Virus record (IMG/VR): IMGVR_UViG_3300033144_008177 | Span: 1 to 51,830 of that record | Source: a virus | Direction: 5' to 3' (one strand) | DNA length: 51,830 nucleotides | Part shown: positions 4,810-45,400 of the stretch, piece after piece | Layout: the number at the start of each line of letters is the position of its first letter | How positions within the stretch are numbered: position 1 is the first letter of the stretch | Program-made: the position numbers and the translations under genes | Notes under the pieces: generated by a model | The model's database searches: none | What the model was told of the DNA's origin: nothing | What the model saw: the letters and a program-made list of their open reading frames with translations, nothing else

Positions 4810-4846
4810 AAAAAATGCACAGTAACAATGTTAATGTTACTGTGCA
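4810..4846 (-). terminator. Intrinsic terminator closing the CRISPR transcript
   Basis: Perfect 12-bp stem TGCACAGTAACA/TGTTACTGTGCA with a 7-nt loop, then TTTTTT on the minus strand. Confidence 0.8.
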
Positions 4847-4999: not shown

Positions 5000-6683
5000 A
5001 TTATAATCCACTCTCATATCGCTATAAGAGAATCAACAGAATTACCTAAACTACATAAAACTACGTTGTAATCCACTCTCATATTACTATGAGAGACATC
5101 CATCAGATTTGCAGTCTCTGGCAATTATTGGTTGTAATCCACTCTCATATTACTATGAAAGACATCAGCCTATCAGGCAGCAATAGATTTTGTTGTTGTA
5201 ATCCACTCTCATATTACTATGAGAGACATCATACTTTTGTTTTAGTGTAGGGAATCTTCTGTTGTAATCCACTCTCATATTACTATGAGAGACATCAGCA
5301 TTAGTAACGGACAGACTCATTATTATGTTGTAATCCACTCTCATATTACTATGAGAGACATCAGGGGTTGCCCATTTATCTGTCTTACTGCTGTTGTAAT
5401 CCACTCTCATATTACTATATGAGAGACATCAATATTGATGCTTGTCGCATCGGGAGTGAGGGTTGTAATCCACTCTCATATTACTATGAGAGACATCTAT
5501 TGCTATGGCCACTATGTTAAATGCTTTGTTGTAATCCACTCTCATATTACTATGAGAGACATCTGCCCAGAGTCGGGGTCTTTGACAGTTCCCGTTGTAA
5601 TCCACTCTCATATTACTATGAGAGACATCTCCGCTTGTAGACTTGGTTCGTGGTCGTCAGTTGTAATCCACTCTCATATTACTATGAGAGACATCAAATA
5701 TAGCGAGAGTGTCCTGCACGTCTTTGTTGTAATCCACTCTCATATTACTATGAGAGACATCCTGGTCTGTTTAGTGGAAGATCTAGGGTAGTTGTAATCC
5801 ACTCTCATATTACTATGAGAGACATCCGGCTTGAGTGAATATCAGCGAAGAGTTGTGTTGTAATCCACTCTCATATTACTATGAGAGACATCTTGTTTCA
5901 TAAATCGACTGTATCTACCAAGTTGTAATCCACTCTCATATTACTATGAGAGACATCTTCATCAACATCTTGCCCTGATCTTTGCAGTTGTAATCCACTC
6001 TCATATTACTATGAGAGACATCATCGTGTGATGACCTTATAAGGATAGACAAGTTGTAATCCACTCTCATATTACTATGAGAGACATCAAAACAAGAGAG
6101 AGACAGATAATGACTTGTGTTGTAATCCACTCTCATATTACTATGAGAGACATCTCGATGGGTGAGGAACCACAAACTTCCTATGTTGTAATCCACTCTC
6201 ATATTACTATGAGAGACATCATTGAAATAAATCTTGACGTAATAATGTTAGTTGTAATCCACTCTCATATTACTATGAGAGACATCTAAAGCTATATATT
6301 CCATCCCCTAATATCTGTTGTAATCCACTCTCATATTACTATGAGAGACATCGTTTATAGTAAAGTATCTGTCCTGCTGTCCGTTGTAATCCACTCTCAT
6401 ATTACTATGAGAGACATCAAATATTTTGACACATAGCCAGTTCTCCTTGTTGTAATCCACTCTCATATTACTATGAGAGACATCAAGGTGACAAAGGTGA
6501 AAAAGGCGAGCAGGGTTGTAATCCACTCTCATATTACTATGAGAGACATCAAAGTATAAGAACAGCAGGAACAAACTATGGTTGTAATCCACTCTCATAT
6601 TACTATGAGAGACATCAATAGAATATAACATGACCTGGAAAGAGTTCGTTGTAATCCACTCTCATATTACTATGAGAGACATC
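5000..6683 (-). CRISPR. CRISPR array: 25 near-identical 36-nt repeats plus 1 degenerate terminal repeat, 25 spacers of 28-31 nt
   Basis: Repeat on minus strand GATGTCTCTCATAGTAATATGAGAGTGGATTACAAC, with an 8-bp stem, GTAA loop and 11-nt 3' tail TGGATTACAAC like I-C. Repeats start at + 5065, 5131, 5195 ... 6581, 6648. Variants at 5131 (1 substitution), 5393 (2-nt insertion) and 5000 (degenerate) place the trailer at left and the leader at right. Confidence 0.98.
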
Positions 6684-6813
6684 TGTAGATTCATAACTAT
6701 ATTATCTACAGATGTTTATATTAAAAATATCAATTAAAAAATGCTTATTTCTGCACATTAAACTCCCCTGTACTTCCATTTTTCTATATTTAATTATAAA
6801 AGAACTCACTATA
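6684..6813 (-). promoter_or_regulatory. CRISPR leader
   Basis: AT-rich noncoding stretch between the cas3 stop and the first intact repeat. Degenerate repeats are at the opposite end. Confidence 0.7.
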
Positions 6814-9327
6814 TTACTCGACACTATGCCCCATTCTGATTAATATTTCTTTCATATATCCTAAGAAATCAGGATCATATTCTCCTGTCCAAACATTAAA
6901 TTCTTTAGGAGCCTTTATTTTTGCTTCTTTATACTTATCATTAGGAATTCTATCTTCATTCACAAAATCAATATTATCCTGGTAATCAGCTCTATCTAAC
7001 TTAGTAAAAAACATCTGAATACTATTCTCTGTCAACTCACGATATCTAACTATATCTTCATTGTCAATCTTAGCTATCACTTCTGGATCAACTACAATTG
7101 ATTTATATGAACGAGGAATAATTTTATATAAATCAGCGACTGAGCCAAAACAAAGTTGTTCTTCTTCAAATTCTATCTCTGTAAAATACTCTAGATCTTT
7201 ATTACGTTCTACTATCTCTCTTCTAATAGATTCAGTACAATATCCGTACCCAATACGATCAACATCGAAAAGATCATTATGTACTTTAATAGAAGCATTA
7301 AATGCAGGATTATTAGTAGTGCCCATTGCTTCATGATCCATATTAAATACAAACACATCGCAACATTCAATGTATTCATTTCCACGATTCACTCGACCAC
7401 CAAGTTGCAATAAACTTAAATGACAATTATTTTCTCTAAAACCAGTTCTGAATGAAAAATTAACTCCAGTTTCAATACATGATGTAGATACTAAAACCCA
7501 GTCATCATCAGTTCTATCTTTAAGTCTATTTTTAATAACTTTATATTTTGTCTTTCTATTTTTCGGTGTAAGAGCGGTAGATATATGTTCTACTTTTTCT
7601 CTTCCATATTGTAACCTTATATAATTAGCAAAAATAGCTGCCGATAAAACAGTATTAAATACTACAACTCTTGGTCCAGGTCTACTCATTACTACTTCTG
7701 CTAATTGTTGAAAACTATTAAACTGTTCCTCTATTCTTGAATAACTAACCCTACCAACCTCTAACTCGTTCATAACATGATTAGACTCACAAGATAAAAC
7801 TTCTTTTACTTCAATTTCGCATGATTTTAGTTGCTCTATTTCCCAAAATTTTACAGAAGATCCAGACATAAGAATAACTTTACATCCACAGTTATCTACC
7901 AAATATTTCAACCACCTCAAAGTTTGACGTAACATTTTTATAGGAACAGCAATATGAAACTCATCAATAATAATAACTCTACCAGTAAGTTGATGAAGTT
8001 TTCTTATTTTAGATGGATAATTACTAGCCATAGTCTCAAAAAACTGGACAACCGATACAACTTCAAAAGGACAATTCCATAAAGTACTGTAATGCTTTAA
8101 CAACTTATAATTAATACCTTCCTTTTGAGACCTTTCCCAATGTCTAGCGTCTTGGTAATGTTCCCCTATAACTTCTCCACTTTTTTCTCCAGGCAACATT
8201 AAAAAATCTTTGCTCTCTCTTATATTTTGTGTTAAAATATCATTGTATGGAGCCATCTTCACAACTCCTCTTAAACCATGCTCTCTACATAGTCTTAAAG
8301 CTAAATAATCACCAGAATGATTTTTTCCATAACCTGGAAAAGCATAAATTCCATAAAAATTGTGACCCAAACTTACTTCTTCACAATCTTTGTGTATAAG
8401 GCTTCTTACTCTATTTTTTTCTCTTTCTTTTTCTGTCTCAGCCAAAGGAAAATTATCGTACATCATCATATGATGTGTTAATCTTTCGTCTGCTCTTAAT
8501 GGAAATGTTATTACATTAGGAGCAATCCCACCATAATGACGAGAGGTATCCCCATGATCGCCCTCTACTAAACACGATAACATAAATCTTAAAAGCATAG
8601 AATGATCAAGTATTGGAATGTATAATGATTCTATACTTTTTTTACTGTTTTCAAAACATTTATAATGTCTTTCTAATAATTCAGATAATGTTTCATCTAC
8701 ATACTCTTTTACTGTTTTGTTTTTATCATCTACAACATGCTTATAATATGGATATTTTTTTAACATTTTGACATCGCTTCTGAGAATATCAATATTAGCA
8801 ACAATACTACCCAATGATGGATATAATTTCGCATCTCGTTCTTCTCTGTTCTCATTTAAAATTTTATTCAATATCCCAATATGATGTGCATCAATCAATA
8901 CAGCTGCAATAAGATAATTAATCCGAAGAGCAAGACTAAGACCTGATTTTTTTATCTCACTATATTTTTGAAGAAGAAAAGCAGAACCAGCATCAACATG
9001 ATTAAGCATACTTATTTTACTACCATTCTCATTATGATGCCTCTTCTTTATAATTTCTTGAGATACTAAATCCAATTTACCAAGATCATGATATTCCGCT
9101 GCTATTTCTAATACTTCCCTCGCTGCAGATATAACGCTACTATCCAATGACATATATTTTACCATTTCATCAAAACATCGCAAAGCTCTGTCTCTCACTT
9201 CGCTAGCATGTGAATAATAAGACTGAGTAAAATTAATCCCATTCTCTGGATCGTCTGAATGAGCAACATAATCAAACAACGTGTCCTCCGAAGAGGACAC
9301 GCTGTTGTTATTAATATGTTCTGACAT
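6814..9327 (-). CDS. cas3: Cas3 HD nuclease-helicase
   Basis: YVAHS..SH, HDLGK, AHH and SCLVEGDHGDT (HD domain); PGYGKN, IIIDEFH, MSGS, STSCIETGVN and QLGGRVNR (SF2 motifs). TAATG overlap with cas7. Confidence 0.93.
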   Translation of the reverse strand: MSEHINNNSVSSSEDTLFDYVAHSDDPENGINFTQSYYSHASEVRDRALRCFDEMVKYMSLDSSVISAAREVLEIAAEYHDLGKLDLVSQEIIKKRHHNENGSKISMLNHVDAGSAFLLQKYSEIKKSGLSLALRINYLIAAVLIDAHHIGILNKILNENREERDAKLYPSLGSIVANIDILRSDVKMLKKYPYYKHVVDDKNKTVKEYVDETLSELLERHYKCFENSKKSIESLYIPILDHSMLLRFMLSCLVEGDHGDTSRHYGGIAPNVITFPLRADERLTHHMMMYDNFPLAETEKEREKNRVRSLIHKDCEEVSLGHNFYGIYAFPGYGKNHSGDYLALRLCREHGLRGVVKMAPYNDILTQNIRESKDFLMLPGEKSGEVIGEHYQDARHWERSQKEGINYKLLKHYSTLWNCPFEVVSVVQFFETMASNYPSKIRKLHQLTGRVIIIDEFHIAVPIKMLRQTLRWLKYLVDNCGCKVILMSGSSVKFWEIEQLKSCEIEVKEVLSCESNHVMNELEVGRVSYSRIEEQFNSFQQLAEVVMSRPGPRVVVFNTVLSAAIFANYIRLQYGREKVEHISTALTPKNRKTKYKVIKNRLKDRTDDDWVLVSTSCIETGVNFSFRTGFRENNCHLSLLQLGGRVNRGNEYIECCDVFVFNMDHEAMGTTNNPAFNASIKVHNDLFDVDRIGYGYCTESIRREIVERNKDLEYFTEIEFEEEQLCFGSVADLYKIIPRSYKSIVVDPEVIAKIDNEDIVRYRELTENSIQMFFTKLDRADYQDNIDFVNEDRIPNDKYKEAKIKAPKEFNVWTGEYDPDFLGYMKEILIRMGHSVE

Positions 9328-10250
9328 TATACTAATGCCTCCGAATAAGTATTGCTTAACATCTCTACCTTAATATCTGGAAAAGCTTTCTTAATATCAT
9401 CTAAAGATTTCAAGTTATAATCATCCATAGAGATTGATGGAAGTGTAAGATCCGTTGAAGGTTTACAAAACTCAAATAATGTTGACTCATTAAATGAACC
9501 AAGAGGATTATCATGTTCAGCATGTACAATCTGAACTACTCTCACTCCGGACCTTGATGCAGCCGTAGAATTACTGAATGAATGCTTGATTAATTCCTTG
9601 AAGACATCAATATCCTGTTCAGTTGTACCAGTATAATGAGCTTTCGAAGGATTAATAACATATACACCTATGTACAGCCCATGCCTTACAACCTTATATC
9701 CAAAAGGAGCTATTGTCCCTTGACCTTGAGCCATAAGCTTTGATTCAAGAGGATTCCCCTTTGTGATTGTCTGATTAATAACCTCAATCGGAAGTAAAGA
9801 TACAAGAGGAGAAACAGAAACACAACCTGTCCTCTTAAAGTTTAAAGAATCTTTGCCTTTTGTTTCAAGAGCAGTAGTACCAAATACCCTCATATCCCAA
9901 AAACGCTTCAAAAGAGATTCTTCTCCCTCTTCCTTAACCATCTTAGACCAATGTTCTTTAGCCTCTATTGGCGAATTAACATCGTATCCTTTACAAGCAG
10001 ATTCCCAGATATGGAAACTATCATCGTCAAGACCCAACTTGCCTTGCAAATATTCCCAGGTAACTCCCTCATGATCCTCCAACAATTCCCTTGTACGATG
10101 CTTAAAACAAACTGGTGTAATAAGACCACACTCATCATTGGTAAGACGAGGCATATCATCCTCATCGGGATTACCATTAGGATTAGACAAAACTACTTCA
10201 ACTGCTACGATACCAAATGCTCGTTTGGCTAATTTTTTACTTTTCTTCAT
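9327..10250 (-). CDS. cas7: Cas7 (Csd2/Cas7c-like)
   Basis: SNPNGNPDEDDMPR, ITPVCFKHRTR and FWDMRVFG match the I-C Cas7 signatures NPNGDP..PR, DVCLKRKIR and FDVRTFG. Confidence 0.93.
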   Translation of the reverse strand: MKKSKKLAKRAFGIVAVEVVLSNPNGNPDEDDMPRLTNDECGLITPVCFKHRTRELLEDHEGVTWEYLQGKLGLDDDSFHIWESACKGYDVNSPIEAKEHWSKMVKEEGEESLLKRFWDMRVFGTTALETKGKDSLNFKRTGCVSVSPLVSLLPIEVINQTITKGNPLESKLMAQGQGTIAPFGYKVVRHGLYIGVYVINPSKAHYTGTTEQDIDVFKELIKHSFSNSTAASRSGVRVVQIVHAEHDNPLGSFNESTLFEFCKPSTDLTLPSISMDDYNLKSLDDIKKAFPDIKVEMLSNTYSEALV

Positions 10251-10251
10251 T

Positions 10252-10629
10252 TTAAATCTCCATTAAATATTCTAAAATAATTATATTTTTAGAAGAAGTG
10301 CTAACACAGCAATCTTCTTCACTATCCACTCTTTCGAGAACGTCATTAAGAAGTTTTGTAAACAACATCATTCTACCATAAGCAATTCTCCAATCATTAC
10401 TTCGTTTTTTTCTTTTGGCATCACAAAAACGAGCAAATGGATCTGCTAATTTTTGTAAAAATAATATACCATCTTTGGGTCTATTTAATACCATAGATAA
10501 TGACTTTCCCCCAATTAATTCTTTAGGAATATCATTAAGTTTATTGTGTGACTCATAATAATACATTTGCATATTATCAGCCTTTTTTAATAACTGTCCA
10601 ATTTTTCCACAAAATTCTTTATCAAACAT
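10252..10629 (-). CDS. cas11: Stand-alone Cas11-like small subunit
   Basis: Own RBS (AAAGAGGT-tatt-ATG), 125 aa and helical. Aligns by eye to the Cas8c C-terminus: GQLL/GQML, IPKELIGGK/MPTELTGTK, VLNRP/ALSNP. Confidence 0.75.
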   Translation of the reverse strand: MFDKEFCGKIGQLLKKADNMQMYYYESHNKLNDIPKELIGGKSLSMVLNRPKDGILFLQKLADPFARFCDAKRKKRSNDWRIAYGRMMLFTKLLNDVLERVDSEEDCCVSTSSKNIIILEYLMEI

Positions 10630-10658: not shown

Positions 10659-12617
10659 TTACTTATTTTGAAAATATCCTAATGCAATTAACATCCTATC
10701 GGTATCACTCCAATAATCAGAAAACTCATTATCTAAAATAACTCTAGATGCTTGTGCAAATAAATAATAATGATAATGACTCTTAGATTTTCCAGAAAGA
10801 CGATATTCAGCCACTCTCTTCGCTTTTGCTTTTGCTAAATATATTCTAGCATTAGTAAGAGCCAAATTCATAGCTCTCTCAGGATTAGATAAGGCTAAAT
10901 AAATATGTTTTGTACCTGTAAGCTCAGTAGGCATATTTTTGTCATCTCTTCCTTCAGATTTTAAAACACTTCTCTGTACTTTGCTAATACATGCCAACAT
11001 TTGACCAACCATATAAGGAACATTTTTTTCATAATCTTCCTTATAAATACCAAGTTGATACAGAACTTCTCCAAATGCTACGGGTAAACCAAAGATATCT
11101 AAACGAGAACTCTTTAAATTATACAACTTCCTATTCATAATTCTATTTGTTATATCAATCAATAAATTTATTTGATATTTCCCGAAAACATGAGCAATTT
11201 TTTTAGTTTCATTCTTATCACCCATAAACATTCTCACTATATTTTCTGTATTGATAAAATCACGAACCAATTCTTTACCAGCATCACAAGATGCACTTCT
11301 ATTCCATCTTTTGTTGGTAATTCTACGCATACTTTCAATGCTTATCTTTGAATACAAATTTTTCTTAACACCTTTTTTAACATAGATGCCAGTATATTCA
11401 CCATCATCATAATTATCCCATCCCTCTATCCATCGTTTAGAAAAAGTTACCAAATCTTTAATATTGATCATATCTGATAAAACCAAGCTCGAAGGTCCAT
11501 TTGATGGCACTCTAAAAATTAGAATATGAACTTTTTCATTATTAGCATAAGCACTACTACCTCTAATATTAGATATGATGCCAGAAGATTTCTCCTTAAC
11601 CTTTTCATCAATTTCTTTGTTAACCCTTTCTTGAGTTCCACCAATCTCTAACAACTCCTGCAAATCAGATAAAATTGTTTCTTTTATAGGAGCAAAAACA
11701 ATTGTTGCTGTTCTAGTACCATCCTTATTAGAATGTGAATCCCAATATAACCCCTTATTCTTACCTTTAGTTAGATATTGCATCTTTCCAAAAATAAATG
11801 CTTTTGAAGCTGGAGAAATTGGACAGGCATCATTCCCAGCAACATTGTAACTTCTATAACACTTAGAAAATGGATTCCTACTATACGAGTAAAATTTAGT
11901 TCTGTCTAAACTTAACTGCGGAAGAGATGTAGATTCTGAAAAACTATTACCAAAAATATCCGTTTTATCTCCTGAGCCACTCTCAGATACTACATCTTCT
12001 TCTATTTGATTCAAAGCATCACTAATAATTGTTATAATTTCAGTACTATTCACAGGATGTATATTAAGATCACTGTATTCTGTAATCTCTAAAGTGATAT
12101 ACATTTCATTAAGAGCATCCTTCTTGGTAAATTTTTTACTATCTTCTGACTCATCTGGTAGAATCTCTAATGATTTCTCTATAATTTCTTTTAAGAATTT
12201 TTCATGATTTTCTACTTCATTAATTCTCTCTGAAAGCAAAAAAAGTGATTCAGTTTCACTATCTCTAGTTAACAATTCTTGCAACATTGTATCCATTCTA
12301 TTAAATTTGCCAATAAATTTTACAACATCCTTTTCTTTTATTGTACCATCATCACCTAAAATATTTTTTATTTTAATAATTGGGTACTGATTATGTGCAT
12401 CCTTGTAGATATATGAATAAGTATTCCAAACTTCTGGGGCAACGAGATTTACCGAACTAATATTTCCATCAGCACCAATACACACTTTAAACTTAGGAGT
12501 CTTTGGTGATCTTGGACTAGGCGATATCATAGAATGCATCTGAACCTCACCTATGCCTAATTCTTCCATTTTATCTGCAATTAATTTCATTTCATTTAAC
12601 ATAACATAATTCTCCAT
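10659..12617 (-). CDS. cas8c: Cas8c (Csd1-like) large subunit
   Basis: Position after cas5 and size 652 aa. The C-terminal domain YMVGQMLA...ALSNP...RMLIALGYFQ resembles the I-C YxxGRLFA...AxxxP...FxLGYYxQ. The start may instead be Met6 (GGAG RBS). Confidence 0.8.
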   Translation of the reverse strand: MENYVMLNEMKLIADKMEELGIGEVQMHSMISPSPRSPKTPKFKVCIGADGNISSVNLVAPEVWNTYSYIYKDAHNQYPIIKIKNILGDDGTIKEKDVVKFIGKFNRMDTMLQELLTRDSETESLFLLSERINEVENHEKFLKEIIEKSLEILPDESEDSKKFTKKDALNEMYITLEITEYSDLNIHPVNSTEIITIISDALNQIEEDVVSESGSGDKTDIFGNSFSESTSLPQLSLDRTKFYSYSRNPFSKCYRSYNVAGNDACPISPASKAFIFGKMQYLTKGKNKGLYWDSHSNKDGTRTATIVFAPIKETILSDLQELLEIGGTQERVNKEIDEKVKEKSSGIISNIRGSSAYANNEKVHILIFRVPSNGPSSLVLSDMINIKDLVTFSKRWIEGWDNYDDGEYTGIYVKKGVKKNLYSKISIESMRRITNKRWNRSASCDAGKELVRDFINTENIVRMFMGDKNETKKIAHVFGKYQINLLIDITNRIMNRKLYNLKSSRLDIFGLPVAFGEVLYQLGIYKEDYEKNVPYMVGQMLACISKVQRSVLKSEGRDDKNMPTELTGTKHIYLALSNPERAMNLALTNARIYLAKAKAKRVAEYRLSGKSKSHYHYYLFAQASRVILDNEFSDYWSDTDRMLIALGYFQNK

Positions 12618-13257
12618 TTTCGATTTTCACATTTTGAACTGATGAGGGATTGTACTCACCTCTGTTAAGAGAATCAAAACAACATAGTGTCATTGAGGCT
12701 ATAATAAAATTAATATGCTCTTGAACTTTTGTATCTTCTCTGAATATGCCGACATAAGAAGCTAAAAATTCAGACAAACCTAAACATGGTGTTCTATAAT
12801 TTCTACTATTTTTTAGACGACGATTGAATTGTGCCTGATATGCATGGGCATGATTAATACCTTTATATCTTTTAGGGGTTGAAACAATCTCATCCGCCTT
12901 TATTACTTTTGCAAAAAGCCTATAACAAGGATTTACAAGAATTGTACTTTTTATTTGACAAGTATTATTTTTCTTAATTAATTCTGATTTACGAAGTTCC
13001 CCTCTATAATTAAATGCATAAGACTGATATCTTATTGGATTACAAATTTGAACTTTTACAGGAACAACAATAGCATTAGGCATATATAATATAGATTCAA
13101 ATATACCTTTTGCTGCTGAAAAAGTTGGGAAAGGATAACTCGTCTTCTCGCTCCCAGTATCAGGTCTAGCAAACATTGCAAATGGACCTGATATTTCCAT
13201 CGAAATAGAATAATGAACCCTACTACCTAATAACTTAATAATTTCTTCTGACTTCAT
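12592..13257 (-). CDS. cas5: Cas5 (Cas5d/Cas5c-like, likely pre-crRNA processing nuclease)
   Basis: ISGPFAMFARPD..EKTSYPFPTFSAAKGIFESI and PCLGLSEF match the I-C Cas5 signatures. RBS GGAGG. Confidence 0.93.
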   Translation of the reverse strand: MKSEEIIKLLGSRVHYSISMEISGPFAMFARPDTGSEKTSYPFPTFSAAKGIFESILYMPNAIVVPVKVQICNPIRYQSYAFNYRGELRKSELIKKNNTCQIKSTILVNPCYRLFAKVIKADEIVSTPKRYKGINHAHAYQAQFNRRLKNSRNYRTPCLGLSEFLASYVGIFREDTKVQEHINFIIASMTLCCFDSLNRGEYNPSSVQNVKIENGELCYVK

Positions 13258-17060: not shown

Positions 17061-17603
17061 TTACATTCTCAAAATGAGTGAAATGTAATTACCAAGAGTA
17101 ATACTACCATCAGTAGTATCTGTTCCAGGAACTCCACTTGGATATGCTGTGGTAGAACTTGCTGCGATAGCAATAAAATCGTTAGCATTGTTACCAGCAG
17201 AACCTGCCCAGTAACCAACACCTGTACCAGCCTGCATCAAATTACCAGCAGTAACACCAGCTGGGGCATCGAACAAGTCAGTACTGACCCAGAATTTTCC
17301 GCCACCAGTGTAAACTGTAATTCTCTGTGATGCTGCTGTCTCATTGTAAAAGTCACTAACTCTATTCTCTGTCCAACGATTTGCTGCACCATTAGCACCA
17401 ATTACAACCTGTGCTGAGTAAGCTGTTGTTTGACCTTCAGCTGAGAGAAAAGAATCACCGGCAATACCGATAGCAGCTTCGCTTGTAGTTACAGCTGGGA
17501 CAACTAATCCTGCTGCAAATTCCACGCACATACCAGCTGTGATAGATGTTCCACCTACTGGATAATGATCAGCAACTACATGCTGTTCAACTATAATAGC
17601 CAT
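17061..17603 (-). CDS. Capsid decoration/cement-like protein
   Basis: 180 aa, small-residue-rich, located between protease and capsid genes. RBS AGGAG. Confidence 0.55.
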   Translation of the reverse strand: MAIIVEQHVVADHYPVGGTSITAGMCVEFAAGLVVPAVTTSEAAIGIAGDSFLSAEGQTTAYSAQVVIGANGAANRWTENRVSDFYNETAASQRITVYTGGGKFWVSTDLFDAPAGVTAGNLMQAGTGVGYWAGSAGNNANDFIAIAASSTTAYPSGVPGTDTTDGSITLGNYISLILRM

Positions 17604-17623
17604 AATAATCTCCTATTTTTTAA

Positions 17624-20600
17624 TTATTTACTAAAAACTTTTCTTAATTGAGTTGTAGTATCATCACTTGCTATTTTATTCTGTTTTTCAAGAGTAAATA
17701 ATCCTTGCAACTTATCTGACAACTCTTCATTAGCATTTCTCATGCTACTATTCTCATTTATTTGCACGGCTTGAGATATACCGTCTGAAACAGTGTCAAG
17801 TCCTTTTTGACCAGCGAAAATCGCTTTTTCAAAATCTCTTATTTGAGCAGGCTTATAAGTTTTGAGTTCATTAACTTTACTCTGTAGCTCTGATGCATCT
17901 ATTTTATTAGCTGCTATCATTTTTCCAGCTACCCTATAAGCTTCGGACTCAGAATCGCTATTTGCGATTACTGTACCTTTATCTTTTGTTGTTTTTTCTG
18001 AATCTAATTCTTCTTTACCCATTTGGGCATTACCTGTGAACACTTCTGGTTGATCTGCTGGCTCTTTTGGAGCTGAACCAACTGTCTCACTTTCATGTCC
18101 GATAAGTGACTCAGTTGCTCCGCCTTCTACACTATTAGGTTCGTCAGCAGTGAACTTATCTTCTTTTCCTATTGTGCTTCCATCTCCAGCATCAATTGGC
18201 TGAATATCTGGATCATCCGCTACAGGCTTCTTTGGTTCCATTTTTTTAGCAATTCTATCTGCAAGAGCAGATAAACTGTCTTTAGAGGTTCCAAAACCCT
18301 TCATATGATAAAGATCATCATCTGTTGAAGCCAACTCTGTTTTACCTTGTCCATCGGTTCCACCAGTAAATCTATTATCTCCACCACCCAATCCAACTTC
18401 TTTCTCATGACCCATTGTAGCATCATCAGAAGGAACAACTGGAAGAGGTTTATCTTGTGGATTAAGATCACTTGGTTCTTGACCCATTGTAGCATTGTCT
18501 CTTGGTACACTTGGTTTTTGTGGAGTTCTAATGGTTTCACTTTCATGACCCATTTCACTTCCACCTTCACCAGCTGTATAAGTTCCTATATCGGGACTGT
18601 CTTGTGCTTTCTCTTGTGAAATTTCTTTTTCTCCCGCAGTTTTATTAATAGCTGCGATAACAGAAGAAAGATCCATTTGAGGCTTTCCAACTTGTCCAAT
18701 TGCTCCACTCATAATTAAGGCTTCCTTATAATCCATACCATCATTATCATTTACATTTCCAGCTTCTTTTTCAAAATCCTCTTTTTTTTCTGCAAAAGCT
18801 GATCCGCCACCTGTTGGTTCTCCATTAACTGTAATCTTAACAGATCCGCCCCCGCCATAAGAATCATCACAAGGCTCTCCAATACCGCCCATGCCTTCTG
18901 GTGTTTCGCTATCAAACATTGTCATATCTTTACCTTCTTCTATAGGGGCTTCTTCGCCTTCCACAGGCACTTCTCCACCTTCCATAGAATTCATATCTCC
19001 ACCATCTAAATCACCTGGCGCAACTTCTTCTATTGGAGCTTCATCACTTATTCCGCCTTCATCACCTATTCCGCCTTCATCACCTATTCCGCCTTCATCT
19101 ATTCCTTCTTCTCCGATTCCACCCGTTGCTTCATCCACTGCAGAACCAAGTTGTTCAGCAACATCTGATGGAAGCTCGATTGTTACAGTACCACCATCAA
19201 TGCCTTCATCAATATTTTCGAATGGATCTTCTTCTTCTCCCATTCCTATATCATCAACAGGTTCTCCCATAGAATCTTGCTCTTCATCAATAATCTGTGA
19301 TGTAACACTAAGTTGATCTGCAAAAATATAATCAGATTGAACCATGGCAGATTTCAATGTTGTACAAATTACTGCTGATTCTCTTAATGAATAACCATTT
19401 CTAACTTGATCTGTAATACACTCTTCATCTCCATCACAATCTGACCAAATCGAAGCAACTTTTGTTGCTAATTTAGTAGTATAAACATCAGCCTTTTTAA
19501 GTCTATTACATACAGACTCAGCAAGATTTTCACCTTCATCTGGTCCGCTCAAACAGATAGCATCTTTTCCAAATCTACGTGCTAATTTCTCAATACAAGA
19601 TTCGACTGGGAATTTATCTCCATAGTTGCCATAAGCAAGTTTATAATCTTCTACTACTGAACCTTCTTTAGCAGCAACTTTCATCAGTGCTCCAGACTTA
19701 TTCATTTTTACAATAATATCAACTTTATCTTTAAGCTCTAACTCATTAAATTTAGCTTCTGTAAGTTCTACAGAAGAAAGAGCTTTAATAAATCTTTGTT
19801 TTGCTCTCGAACAAGATGGGCATTCTACTCCAGCGACTTTTGGTTTCCATTCCCACTGTGCATAGGCCTTGTTGCCATCTTTAGAAACAATGCAAGAAAC
19901 TTTATATTTTGTACCAGTGTCTAAACATACATACTGCTCATCATCCATTTTAAGAGTATTTATAGTTCCAGTTATTGGACTGACTGATCCAAGTATAATA
20001 TTTTGACTTCCAATTTTCTTAAGTGCTTCTGGAAGTAAACGAGTATAAGCAGCCATAGCTGGCATTCCAGCTTCTCCTGCCATTCCTCCACCCATACCTG
20101 GCTCTTCTGCTCCAAGCTCTGGCTCTTCAGTAGGCATTTCAAAACCTTCTCCCTCTCCAAGTCCACCAAGCTCTTCAGCCTCATCACCAGTAGGAGTTAC
20201 ACCTTCCCACTTAGTAACATTAACTTCAACTTTATATGTCATTTCTGAACCACAGTTATTACATTTTCCTTTTCCAGAAATGATATCAACATCATCACTT
20301 CCACAAACTGGGCAAATAGATCCTGGAGGTTTTGCCTCAAGATTTTCTTCATCGAAGCCACCCTCTTCATCCGCCATTGGATCTTCTGTGAAATTCTCCA
20401 TTGGAGGAACTTCTGCTCCAGGCGATCCTGGTAATGCTGCTCCTGCTCCAGGTGCTTGTGCTGCTCCACCTTGACCACCCATTTCTCCACCCATCATTTG
20501 AGCTTGTTTAATCTCAGACTTTGCTGCTGCTATAGGGTTCATTGAAGGTCTATTCTGATCTTGTCCTTGACCCATTCCCATTCCTGCTTGATCTCCACCT

Positions 20601-44310: not shown

Positions 44311-45270
44311 TTATTCAATATATGCAGCACCTATAGTAAATCCAATAAGTTCAGAAATAATAGCAAACGTTTGCGGAACTTGAATATTATTATCTTCCAA
44401 ATAACTATCGACAGATCCATATGTAGTAGTTATATGTATTTGCAGCCTAAAAACAAAATCAAGAACAACTCTACTATAAGTATTATGTTTCAAATCTGCT
44501 TTTTTATAAGTTGCATTAACTCCTTCAAATAGCCACTGTTTATCTATATTTTGACTAATAACCTCTGAATTTTCCAAATCTCTTTTCATATTACACAAAG
44601 CGGTAGATATATTTTCTCCCCTATCTTGAGAGGTACTGATTAAATCAGAAACACTTTCATAAAAAGTTGTAAACTCTATAGAGAATAATAGGCTACCAGT
44701 CCCATCATATGTTATCTTAATATAATGATTTCCTACTCTTCTTGTTATATATTCGCCAATAATTGTAAATATCTTTTTATTTATAGAAGAGTTATTATCC
44801 CACAGGAACAACCCTCCTTCATTTTTTATTATAAAACTAACACCATCTATAACCATAGTGGCTATATCTCCTGCTGCTGAAGCAAAAATATAACAAGCAT
44901 CTCCAGCAACATATGTTGTACTTCCAGGAGTTACATAAAGGCATTCACCAACACTTGAGCTACTACTGCTAATGCTTGAGCTACTGCTGCTAATGCTTGA
45001 GCTACTACTAATTGAGCTGCTAGAACTCTTTGAAGAGCTTGAACTTGAACTTTTTGAACTTGAACTGCTTGAACTTTTTGAACTTGAACTGCTTGAACTT
45101 TTTGAACTTGAACTACTTGAACTTTTTAAACTTGAGCTGCTAGAACTCTTAGAGCTTGAGCTGCTAGAACTCTTTGAACTTGAACTACTGCTCTTAGATG
45201 AGCTGCTAGAACTCTTTGAACTTGAACTACTAGATGAAGCTTCAAGAATAGAATTCCATAAATCTATTAA
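44311..45270 (-). CDS. Polyserine linker + beta-domain + duplicated domain protein; start unresolved, possible frameshift
   Basis: The frame of track ORF 44311..44856 stays open through the Ser tract to 45270 (LIDLWNSILEASSSS...) with no in-frame ATG upstream of 44856. Confidence 0.6.
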   Translation of the reverse strand, partial: LIDLWNSILEASSSSSSSKSSSSSSKSSSSSSKSSSSSSSKSSSSSSLKSSSSSSSKSSSSSSSKSSSSSSSKSSSSSSSKSSSSSISSSSSISSSSSSISSSSSSVGECLYVTPGSTTYVAGDACYIFASAAGDIATMVIDGVSFIIKNEGGLFLWDNNSSINKKIFTIIGEYITRRVGNHYIKITYDGTGSLLFSIEFTTFYESVSDLISTSQDRGENISTALCNMKRDLENSEVISQNIDKQWLFEGVNATYKKADLKHNTYSRVVLDFVFRLQIHITTTYGSVDSYLEDNNIQVPQTFAIISELIGFTIGAAYIE

Positions 45271-45400
45271 CTACTTGAACTTCTTGAACTTGAGCTGCTT
45301 GAACTTTTTGAAGAACTTGAACTACTTGGATTACTTGAACTACTAGATCTTGAACTACTAGAACTTGAACTTTTTGAACTACTGCTTGATGTTCCTTGAT
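44955..45400 (-). repeat. Polyserine-coding tandem repeat, split by a frame change near 45268
   Basis: SSSSKS units on both sides of a TAA TAG. Confidence 0.9.

What the first reader, a model, noticed from the sequence alone, without database searches (positions are those of the whole stretch)
5065..6683. Hybrid repeat: type I-C processing elements in type II-like 36/30 geometry
Seen: the repeat is 36 nt (GATGT + 8-bp stem with GTAA loop + TGGATTACAAC) and spacers are mostly 30 nt. The repeat ends are quasi-palindromic (GATGT...ACAAC; GTTGTA... on the other strand). No cas1/2/4 is in the window. Established: I-C arrays usually have ~32-nt repeats, ~34-nt spacers and an 11-nt handle TGGATTGAAA(C/T); 36-nt repeats with 30-nt spacers and GTT...AAC ends typify type II and VI-B. 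The 66-nt unit length is unchanged. Inference: the array may be expanded by a host type II Cas1-Cas2 while being processed by phage Cas5. The fixed extra repeat bases would fill the PAM-distal Cas7 register, giving a shorter-guide Cascade.
Basis: partly seen in the sequence, partly recalled or inferred. Interest (0 to 1): 0.8.

Follow-up and report, generated by a model that had tools for sequence, protein, structure and literature searches.

The report
Phage I-C array in 36/30 format
A fragment of a giant phage carries a real CRISPR array whose repeats keep the type I-C cutting signals but use a 36-base repeat and 30-base spacer format that type I-C normally lacks. This suggests that an unlinked, non-I-C enzyme writes the array, but which enzyme is not shown.

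Summary
There are 25 repeats of 36 nt at 5065-6683, plus a decayed 26th at 5000-5035. Eighteen of the 24 spacers between intact repeats are 30 nt.

The array lies just downstream of a minus-strand cas5-cas8c-cas11-cas7-cas3 operon. The record is 51.8 kb, about 12% of a jumbo phage related to Bacillus phage G. It holds no Cas1, Cas2, Cas4, Cas6 or Cas9.

The format is not a one-off. At least six related phage loci share the 36/30 format, the hairpin and the UGG-led 11-nt tail. They sit in one moderately supported Cas7 group, nested among phage lineages that keep 32-nt repeats.

Two sibling arrays share 18 spacers in order but differ at the leader end, so spacers are still being added. Spacer length is sharp (69% exactly 30). 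That resembles a type II-C array and a type III-A array in a genome with no type III Cas1, found in one bacterial MAG. It differs from 12 canonical I-C arrays (mean 34.3, broad).

No cellular I-C array with this repeat was found in 185,579 species genomes. So the "hybrid format written by a non-I-C integrase" reading is reasonably supported. The specific claim of a host type II Cas1-Cas2 is untested. No protospacer or PAM was found, and 88% of the phage genome is unseen.

This is a new variant of a known kind, of moderate interest.

The parts
12592..13257 (-). cas5, Cas5c-like; the presumed pre-crRNA endonuclease
   Evidence: Hits are NCBIfam Cas5c at 54 bits (below the cut-off of 85), PADLOC Cas5c at 83 bits, and solved I-C Cas5 structures 3VZI and 8G9T. 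The canonical Lys-His pair is not conserved at the aligned positions; a Tyr is invariant there.
10659..12617 (-). cas8c-like large subunit
   Evidence: PADLOC gives Cas8c at 156 bits. There is no Pfam hit. The 36%-identical homologue in L006 carries Pfam Cas_Csd1.
10252..10629 (-). Separate small-subunit gene, cas11-like
   Evidence: It matches only the C-terminal part (positions 533-618 of 658) of a Cas8c model. It is conserved in the same position in relatives.
9327..10250 (-). cas7
   Evidence: Pfam gives Cas_Cas7 at 129 bits. NCBIfam gives Cas7c/Csd2 at 98 bits, below the cut-off of 182.
6814..9327 (-). cas3 (HD nuclease plus helicase)
   Evidence: PADLOC gives Cas3c at 251 bits. NCBIfam gives cas3_HD and cas3_core hits.
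6684..6813 (-). AT-rich leader with a promoter-like site at 6696-6724. A 12-bp palindrome spans the leader-repeat junction (about 6678-6716).
   Evidence: The leader layout (T-run, -10-like element, TTATGAA near the junction) recurs in L004, L006 and L023.
5065..6683 (-). CRISPR array of 25 repeats of 36 nt and 24 spacers, mostly 30 nt
5000..5064 (-). Decayed terminal repeat (5000-5035) and the oldest spacer (5036-5064). Together they mark the leader-distal end.
4816..4846 (-). Terminator-like hairpin with a T-run, downstream of the array

Best explanation
This is a working-format CRISPR array of a phage-borne, I-C-derived Cascade-Cas3 system that lacks adaptation genes. The system sits in a fragment of a jumbo phage related to Bacillus phage G.

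**Transcription and processing.** The array is read on the minus strand, from the leader next to the cas3 stop codon to a terminator past the decayed last repeat. The Cas5c-like protein most likely cuts each repeat at the 3' base of the 8-bp hairpin (inferred). This gives a 66-nt crRNA made of an 11-nt 5' handle starting with UGG, a 30-nt guide and a 25-nt 3' hairpin tail. The total length equals that of canonical I-C crRNA. The handle-to-hairpin distance (30+5 = 35 nt) also matches (33-34+2), so the Cascade backbone can stay the same length with a guide about 4 nt shorter (inferred).

**Origin of the format.** The 36/30 format is a derived, conserved trait of one subgroup of phage I-C-like systems. 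Arrays in that subgroup are still gaining spacers at the leader end. Their sharp 30-nt spacer length is unlike the broad 33-37 nt of canonical I-C arrays. The arrays are therefore most likely written by a Cas1-Cas2 integrase with a 36/30 ruler that is not of the I-C (Cas4-Cas1-Cas2) kind. That integrase is encoded away from the locus, either elsewhere in the large phage genome or in the host. A host type II integrase is one candidate among several.
For: **Array and orientation.** A decayed repeat at the low-coordinate end, a leader promoter-like site and a distal terminator all fit the cas strand.

**I-C-type effector.** Cas5c-, Cas8c-, Cas7- and Cas3c-like genes are present, with no Cas6.

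**Processing signals.** The hairpin at repeat positions 6-13/18-25 covaries across 66 distinct repeats. Six of 8 pairs show double changes; 0-2 of 500 shuffles matched four of the five measures and 29 of 500 the fifth, though sliding the 3' partners by +2 columns scored as well (79.2% paired, covariation 0.326). The U-G-G that follows the stem is at least 90% conserved to invariant. [quoted passage not shown]

**Family trait.** Arrays in L004, L006/L039, L023/L069, L045, L063 and L067 have the same 36/30 format and tail, and several have the same cas order. All confirmed 36/30 arrays fall in one Cas7 group (support 86/86). It is nested among phage lineages with 32-nt repeats, L088 and L146.

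**Ongoing acquisition.** Spacers 2-19 of L023 equal spacers 6-23 of L069. The leader-proximal spacers differ, and the newest repeats are identical to each other.

**Spacer ruler.** In the phage family, mean spacer length is 29.9 nt and 84 of 121 spacers are exactly 30 nt. In canonical I-C arrays the mean is 34.3 nt, SD 1.19, and the modal length holds only 27-52% of spacers. A type II-C array and a type III-A array in a genome with no type III Cas1, both from bacterial MAG G001, are 29.9 nt with 75-88% at the mode.

**No adjacent adaptation genes.** None is in the window or on the contigs of L004 and L023.
Against: - The record is only about 12% of the estimated phage genome, so 'unlinked' could simply mean a phage cas1-cas2 a few tens of kb away.
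- The canonical Cas5c catalytic Tyr/Lys/His are not conserved at the aligned positions. Cas5 processing is therefore inferred, not shown.
- No protospacer was found for about 150 family spacers. PAM, targets and activity are unknown.
- Support for the 36/30 group in the Cas7 tree is moderate, and L085 (partial repeat, 36-like) lies in an unresolved fork.
- Repeats of 37 nt occur beside canonical cas7c in 2 of 16 control arrays. A long repeat alone is therefore not foreign to I-C.
Confidence: 0.6

Rival explanations
1. One reading: the host's type II (II-A or II-C) Cas1-Cas2 extends the phage array in trans during infection, and the phage Cas5 and Cascade then use the spacers.
For: The 36-nt repeat and sharp 30-nt spacers equal those of a cas9-cas1-cas2 array in bacterial MAG G001. 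In that genome the only Cas1 found is the type II one. A type III-A array there shares the phage repeat's frame: 36/30, a similar 5' pentamer, and the same 10-nt 3' end. In-trans use of II-C Cas1-Cas2 by cas1-less arrays has been shown for VI-B in Flavobacterium, where the repeats share a GTTGT end (PMC8092290). It has also been shown for VI-A in Listeria, a Bacillota (bioRxiv 10.1101/2024.10.25.620265).
Against: The host is unidentified. G001 is an analogy, not the host, and none of about 100 sampled genomes of its family had such an array. The leaders of the phage arrays and of the G001 arrays share no obvious junction motif. A Cascade effector needs a PAM next to the protospacer. The known in-trans cases involve RNA-targeting VI-A and VI-B effectors, and the VI-B study found that PAMs do not appear to affect VI-B function. 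No PAM could be derived here. No Cas9 or anti-repeat is in the window.
Confidence: 0.2
2. The phage encodes its own cas1-cas2 (with or without cas4) elsewhere in its roughly 430-500 kb genome, and the 36/30 format is that cognate module's ruler.
For: Only about 12% of the genome is in the record. Active leader-end turnover in relatives shows that an integrase is available. A lytic phage benefits from carrying its own integrase, as Vibrio phage ICP1 does (from my own knowledge).
Against: No adaptation gene lies within 38 kb on one side or 5 kb on the other side of the array here, nor on the 22.9-kb L004 contig. Almost all huge-phage CRISPR systems lack Cas1, Cas2 and Cas4 (PMC7162821). A 99%-complete 346-kb phage with a distant I-C variant has no Cas1. 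Type II-like Cas1 hits only 4 of 50,697 phage records.
Confidence: 0.25
3. A host integrase of another type writes the array, for example one associated with a type III-A, V or I-B system.
For: The only cellular array with this tail is type III-A with Cas6. A huge-phage array next to a TnpB/Cas12f-like gene has the same repeat frame. So the frame occurs with several effector types.
Against: No such integrase was identified, and in G001 the only Cas1 is type II.
Confidence: 0.15
4. Nothing writes this particular array any more. The format is inherited, and the array changes only by mutation, duplication and recombination.
For: Relatives such as L004 (30 distinct repeats out of 36, plus a duplicated spacer) and L067 look old and decayed.
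Against: The window's own array has 23 of 26 identical repeats, as expected after recent repeat duplication. L023 and L069 show leader-end turnover.
Confidence: 0.1

Closest known systems
Canonical type I-C (Dvulg) CRISPR-Cas, e.g. D. vulgaris, B. halodurans, S. mutans CRISPR2
   Same: It has Cas5c-, Cas8c-, Cas7- and Cas3-like proteins and no Cas6. The repeat has a hairpin followed directly by an 11-nt tail starting with UGG. The crRNA is about 66 nt.
   Different: The repeat is 36 nt, not 32 (overhang 5 nt against 2, stem 8 bp against 7, loop 4 nt against 5). Spacers are a sharp 30 nt, not a broad 33-37. The tail reads ...ATTACAAC, not ...ATTGAAAC. The gene order is cas5-cas8-cas11-cas7-cas3, with a separate cas11 and no cas4-cas1-cas2. 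Protein scores fall below NCBIfam subtype cut-offs.
Huge-phage type I-C variants without adaptation genes (Al-Shayeb et al. 2020, PMC7162821)
   Same: They are phage-borne and Cas5d-like without Cas6. They lack Cas1, Cas2 and Cas4, and the Cas5 active-site residues differ.
   Different: The variant described there has a helicase in place of Cas3. The distant phage I-C variants I fetched (L081, L083/L084, L088, L146) have short arrays of 3-13 repeats, each 32-34 nt. This locus has a full Cas3, a 25-repeat array and the 36/30 format.
In-trans adaptation between CRISPR types (II-C Cas1-Cas2 serving VI-B or VI-A arrays; I-E serving plasmid IV-A3)
   Same: An effector locus without cas1 still has turning-over spacers. 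Its array format matches that of a different type's integrase, and the repeat ends are shared.
   Different: The recipient here would be a PAM-dependent, DNA-targeting Cascade on a lytic phage genome. The donor is unknown and nothing has been shown experimentally.
Type II-C and VI-B array format
   Same: The repeat is 36 nt, spacers are a sharp 30 nt, and the ends are GTTGT-like and ACAAC.
   Different: The repeat interior carries a Cas5c-type hairpin and handle. No Cas9, tracrRNA anti-repeat or Cas13b is in the record.

Membership tests
Type I-C CRISPR-Cas (effector module) | Cas5c, Cas8c, Cas7c and Cas3 present, with no Cas6 | tested here: met
   PADLOC gives Cas5c 83 bits, Cas8c 156, Cas7b/c 133 and Cas3c 251. 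No Cas6 family hit is found in the record. NCBIfam I-C models score below their cut-offs (Cas7c 98 against 182; Cas5c 54 against 85), so this is a divergent member.
Type I-C CRISPR-Cas (effector module) | Operon cas3-cas5-cas8c-cas7-cas4-cas1-cas2, with Cas11 made from an internal start in cas8c | tested here: not met
   The order is cas5-cas8-cas11-cas7-cas3 followed by the array. The separate 125-aa gene matches only the Cas8c C-terminus. No Cas1, Cas2 or Cas4 is present.
Type I-C CRISPR-Cas (array) | 32-nt repeat (2-nt overhang, 7-bp stem, 5-nt loop, 11-nt tail) with spacers of about 33-37 nt | tested here: not met
   Here the format is 36 nt (5/8/4/11) with 30-nt spacers. Controls were 14 of 16 at 32-33/33-35 and 2 of 16 at 37/35. 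The canonical anatomy comes from PMC8524198.
Type I-C CRISPR-Cas (array) | Hairpin whose 3' base abuts an 11-nt tail beginning with UGG (the Cas5c cut site and recognition element) | tested here: met
   Searches show the covarying stem and the conserved U26, G27 and G28.
Type I-C CRISPR-Cas (Cas5c enzyme) | Catalytic Tyr/Lys/His triad | tested here: inconclusive
   In the alignment to 3VZI, the Lys-His pair aligns with Ala-Tyr. The Tyr is invariant in six family members, while the neighbouring His residues vary. The alignment has low identity, and a similar deviation was noted for huge-phage Cas5.
Type II / VI-B array class | 36-nt repeat, sharp 30-nt spacers, GTTG...CAAC ends | tested here: met
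   The ends are G(G/A)TGT and TACAAC, so they match only partly.
Type II / VI-B array class | Cas9 with a tracrRNA anti-repeat, or Cas13b, beside the array | tested here: not met
   No Cas9 family hit is found. The best repeat-like match outside the array is 24 of 36 bases, inside the capsid gene. Cas13b was not searched by a profile.
In-trans adaptation systems | A donor integrase present in the same cell whose own array shares leader and repeat features | not testable with these tools
   The host is unknown and 88% of the phage genome is unseen. Only an analogy is available, the G001 II-C and III-A pair.

The most novel reading that the evidence does not exclude
A DNA-targeting, PAM-dependent Cascade-Cas3 system on a lytic jumbo phage has re-tooled its repeat. 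The ends and length now fit a heterologous, class-2-type (II-C-like) host Cas1-Cas2, while the interior keeps the Cas5c hairpin and handle. The phage would then have its immune memory written by the host's integrase. That would be cross-class in-trans adaptation onto a viral genome, with the crRNA length held constant by trading guide bases for repeat bases.
Probability: 0.2. Interest if true: 0.8.

Novelty: new variant of a known kind. Interest (0 to 1): 0.55.

Why it matters
Repeats must satisfy two machines: the integrase that copies them and the nuclease that cuts them. This phage subgroup looks like a natural case in which the two requirements have different origins. I-C cutting signals sit inside a 36/30 frame with the sharp spacer ruler seen in type II-C arrays.

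If the writer is a host integrase, it would extend in-trans adaptation from RNA-targeting VI-A and VI-B effectors and type IV plasmid systems to a type I Cascade on a phage. It would also raise a concrete question about how PAM selection is matched between the two systems. Finally, it offers a natural Cascade with a 30-nt guide and an unchanged crRNA length, which is useful for studying what sets Cas7 filament length.

Tried and rejected
**Searches for the repeat.**
- The exact 36-mer and a 16-mer of the repeat were scanned in IMG/VR. They gave no array hits.
- A paired-tail pattern was scanned in IMG/VR, GTDB genomes and JGI metagenomes. Most single hits were 60-72-nt coding tandem repeats and were discarded.

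**Protospacer and PAM search.** All of the following gave nothing usable:
- The window array against 50,697 phage records. The only hits were collagen-like low-complexity matches to tail fibres.
- The L004 and L023 arrays against the same set.
- 151 family spacers against all fetched DNA.
- Two 22-mers of the newest spacers against IMG/VR.

**Other attempts.**
- The search for related loci with the single Cas7 protein found nothing. With an alignment it found only distant I-C variants with canonical repeats.
- The leaders of the phage arrays and the G001 arrays were compared by eye. No shared junction motif was seen.
- A scan of about 100 genomes of G001's family for the same array frame found only G001.
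- The genome search 'relatives' is not available for a virus record, so the host could not be approached that way.
It was redone with repeats derived from the data.

**Readings rejected.**
- A chance or coding tandem repeat was rejected because the spacers are unique, the hairpin covaries and cas genes are adjacent.
- Cas6 processing by a gene in this record was rejected because no Cas6 was found.

Full report
**1. What is there**

The window is a whole IMG/VR virus record of 51,830 nt. CheckV rates it about 12% complete. Its major capsid protein is 54% identical to that of the 497-kb Bacillus phage G, and its GC content is about 33%. It is therefore a fragment of a G-like jumbo phage. The host is probably a Bacillota, but that is an inference.

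At 5065-6683 there are 25 copies of a 36-nt repeat. Of these, 23 are identical, one has a single substitution and one has a 2-nt insertion. They separate 24 unique spacers of 30 nt (18), 29 nt (3), 31 nt (2) and 28 nt (1). A decayed 26th repeat lies at 5000-5035, after a 29-nt spacer.

The decayed end is at low coordinates. The other end adjoins a 130-nt AT-rich leader with a minus-strand promoter-like site (6696-6724). A minus-strand terminator-like hairpin follows the array at 4816-4846. The array is therefore read on the minus strand, the same strand as the adjoining genes.

**2. The genes beside it**

Directly upstream on the minus strand lie five genes:
- cas5 (12592-13257)
- a cas8c-like gene (10659-12617)
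- a 125-aa gene that matches only the C-terminal part of Cas8c models, i.e. cas11-like (10252-10629)
- cas7 (9327-10250)
- cas3 (6814-9327)

The Cas5 protein's best solved relatives are I-C Cas5 proteins, annotated as pre-crRNA endonucleases (3VZI, 8G9T). Scores against NCBI's I-C models are well below their cut-offs, so the system is I-C-like but divergent.

The record has no Cas1, Cas2, Cas4, Cas6 or Cas9. It also has no anti-repeat.

**3. Repeat anatomy**

On the transcribed strand the repeat has a 5-nt overhang, an 8-bp stem, a 4-nt loop and an 11-nt tail beginning with UGG.

Across 66 distinct repeats from seven arrays of the family, the stem covaries. Six of 8 pairs show changes on both sides. 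Between 0 and 2 of 500 shuffles reached the observed values on four of the five measures, and 29 of 500 did on the fifth; sliding every 3' partner by two columns paired as many cells and covaried more. The U, G, G after the stem are at least 90% conserved to invariant.

According to PMC8524198, canonical I-C repeats have a 2-nt overhang, a 7-bp stem, a 5-nt loop and an 11-nt tail. [quoted passage not shown] It recognises mainly the U-G-G just downstream, not the loop or the 5' overhang.

So the elements Cas5c needs are kept. The extra 4 nt sit where Cas5c is tolerant: +3 in the overhang and +1 net in the hairpin. The predicted crRNA is 11+30+25 = 66 nt, against 11+33/34+21 in canonical I-C. 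The distance from handle to hairpin is 35 nt in both. It is consistent but untested.

One caution applies. The catalytic Lys-His of Cas5c aligns with Ala-Tyr here. The Tyr is invariant in six family members. Al-Shayeb et al. noted a similar deviation in a huge-phage Cas5. Processing by Cas5 is therefore inferred.

**4. It is a family trait, and a derived one**

Cas7 homologues led to contigs with the same cas5-cas8-cas11-cas7-cas3 order (L004, L006, L007, L085). A scan of JGI metagenomes for the paired tail gave further arrays.

Seven independent arrays share the 36-nt repeat, about 30-nt spacers, the hairpin and the tail. They are the window, L004, L006/L039, L023/L069, L045, L063 and L067.

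More distant phage-type relatives keep canonical repeats:
- L088: 32/35
- L146/L147: 32 nt
- L081, L083 and L084: 32-34 nt

In a Cas7 tree, the phage-type proteins form a strongly supported clade (100/99). Within it, all confirmed 36/30 arrays fall in one group (86/86), nested among the 32-nt lineages. The 36/30 format therefore arose within this lineage.

**5. Is it unusual for I-C?**

I fetched 20 regions downstream of canonical cas7c genes, drawn from a 300-genome sample of one bacterial phylum. They contained 16 arrays: 14 with 32-33-nt repeats and modal 33-35-nt spacers, two with 37/35, and none with 36/30.

A scan of one genome for each of 185,579 species for the paired 11-nt tail at a 59-73-nt period found only one real array. 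That array is not I-C. It is a type III-A (Csm) locus with Cas6.

The 37-nt examples do show that a longer repeat alone is not foreign to I-C.

**6. Are spacers still being added, and by what kind of ruler?**

L023 and L069 come from sibling metagenomes. They share 18 spacers in the same order. L023 has one leader-proximal spacer that L069 lacks, and L069 has at least five that L023 lacks. The newest repeats are identical to each other, while older ones have diverged. This is the usual signature of polarised acquisition, so an integrase acts on arrays of this family.

| Array set | Mean spacer length | Spread |
|---|---|---|
| Phage 36/30 family (121 spacers) | 29.9 nt | 84 of 121 exactly 30 nt |
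| Canonical I-C (524 spacers, 11 arrays with 32-33-nt repeats) | 34.3 nt | SD 1.19; modal length holds 27-52% |
| G001 type II-C array | 29.9 nt | 75% at the mode |
| G001 type III-A array | 29.9 nt | 88% at the mode |

The ruler that built the phage arrays behaves like the second kind, not like canonical I-C.

**7. The analogy in bacterial MAG G001**

G001 holds the type III-A array. The only Cas1 found in it lies in a cas9-cas1-cas2 locus and scores 295 bits on the type II Cas1 model. That locus has a 36/30 array whose ends (GTTGT... and ...TACAAC) resemble those of the III-A array and of the phage repeats.

This is the same pattern as the experimentally shown use of II-C Cas1-Cas2 by arrays that lack cas1. 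That has been shown for VI-B in Flavobacterium, where the repeats share GTTGT at the leader-distal end (PMC8092290). It has also been shown for VI-A in Listeria (bioRxiv 10.1101/2024.10.25.620265).

A third effector type shows the same repeat frame. It is a TnpB/Cas12f-like 503-aa gene next to an 8-repeat array in a huge-phage contig.

But G001 is not the host, and no relative of G001 among about 100 sampled had such an array. The leaders also show no shared junction motif.

**8. What remains open**

- No protospacer was found, so there is no PAM. This matters. A Cascade needs an adjacent PAM, whereas the known recipients of type II integrases are RNA-targeting VI-A and VI-B effectors; the VI-B study found that PAMs do not appear to affect VI-B function. 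The spacer end that would face a type II PAM is the same end that faces a type I PAM. Compatibility is therefore possible but would need matching motifs.
- About 88% of the phage genome is unseen. The literature says nearly all huge-phage CRISPR systems lack adaptation genes. A complete 346-kb phage with a distant I-C variant has no Cas1. Type II-like Cas1 is nearly absent from phage records. Even so, a phage-encoded module is not excluded.

**9. Verdict**

The description as a hybrid is fair: I-C processing elements sit in a frame whose length and ruler are not I-C-like.

The best-supported mechanism is an I-C-derived phage Cascade whose array is written by an unlinked, non-I-C-type integrase (confidence about 0.6). 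The candidates for that integrase are:
- a host type II enzyme, about 0.2
- a phage-encoded module elsewhere in the genome, about 0.25
- another host type, about 0.15
- none at present, about 0.1

This is a new variant of a known kind. Phage I-C variants without adaptation genes, and in-trans adaptation, are both known. This 36/30 subgroup, its constant crRNA length and its active turnover are not described in the papers I could search.

Earlier notes of this scan on the same window (e1-5819510, e1-5819508) agree on the I-C-like locus without adaptation genes and on the separate cas11.

Noticed in passing
window:6678-6716: A 12-bp perfect palindrome spans the leader-repeat junction, and its 3' arm includes the first 5 nt of the first repeat. 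L006 has a 6-bp analogue at the same place. It could be the cas3 terminator, a leader structure for integration, or a block on processing of the first repeat.
   Followed up: partly
L004:13560-15900; L023:3632-5289; L067:11-642: Several arrays of the family have very heterogeneous repeats: 30 distinct of 36, 21 of 25, and 10 of 10. They still keep the hairpin through compensatory changes and keep the UGG tail. Leader-proximal repeats are uniform and older ones have diverged. L004 also has a duplicated spacer.
   Followed up: partly
L072:2585-8490 and L013:3573-4210 (bacterial MAG G001): One genome holds a cas9-cas1-cas2 locus and a type III-A/Cas6 locus. Both have 36/30 arrays with similar repeat ends, and the genome has only one Cas1 (the type II one). 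It is a candidate natural case of II-C to III-A in-trans adaptation.
   Followed up: partly
L009:5074-7082 (same array in L068, from a 366-kb contig): A huge-phage array of 8 repeats has the same 36-nt frame and the same 10-nt 3' end. It lies directly upstream of a 503-aa TnpB/Cas12f-like gene. The spacers shrink from 30 nt to 17 nt towards the gene.
   Followed up: no
L004:4442-5593 and 17256-18341; L023:6530-7759: TnpB/IS605 OrfB-like genes flank the I-C-like loci of relatives on one or both sides. This hints that the locus moves with, or attracts, these elements.
   Followed up: no
L146:9550-17108 (same in L147): A more distant phage relative has the order small gene-cas7-cas5-cas8-array-cas3. 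Its 32-nt-repeat array sits between cas8 and cas3.
   Followed up: no
L067:11-1287: In one relative, a 10-repeat array lies directly upstream of cas5. Some members may therefore carry arrays on both sides of the operon.
   Followed up: no
window:13530-15789: A DNA methyltransferase with an N-terminal NikA-like domain and a LAGLIDADG homing endonuclease with a MerR-type HTH lie between the capsid gene and the cas operon. L004 also has a methyltransferase just upstream of cas5.
   Followed up: no
window:193-487 and 45043-45378: My array finder also flagged short tandem repeats here.
   Followed up: no
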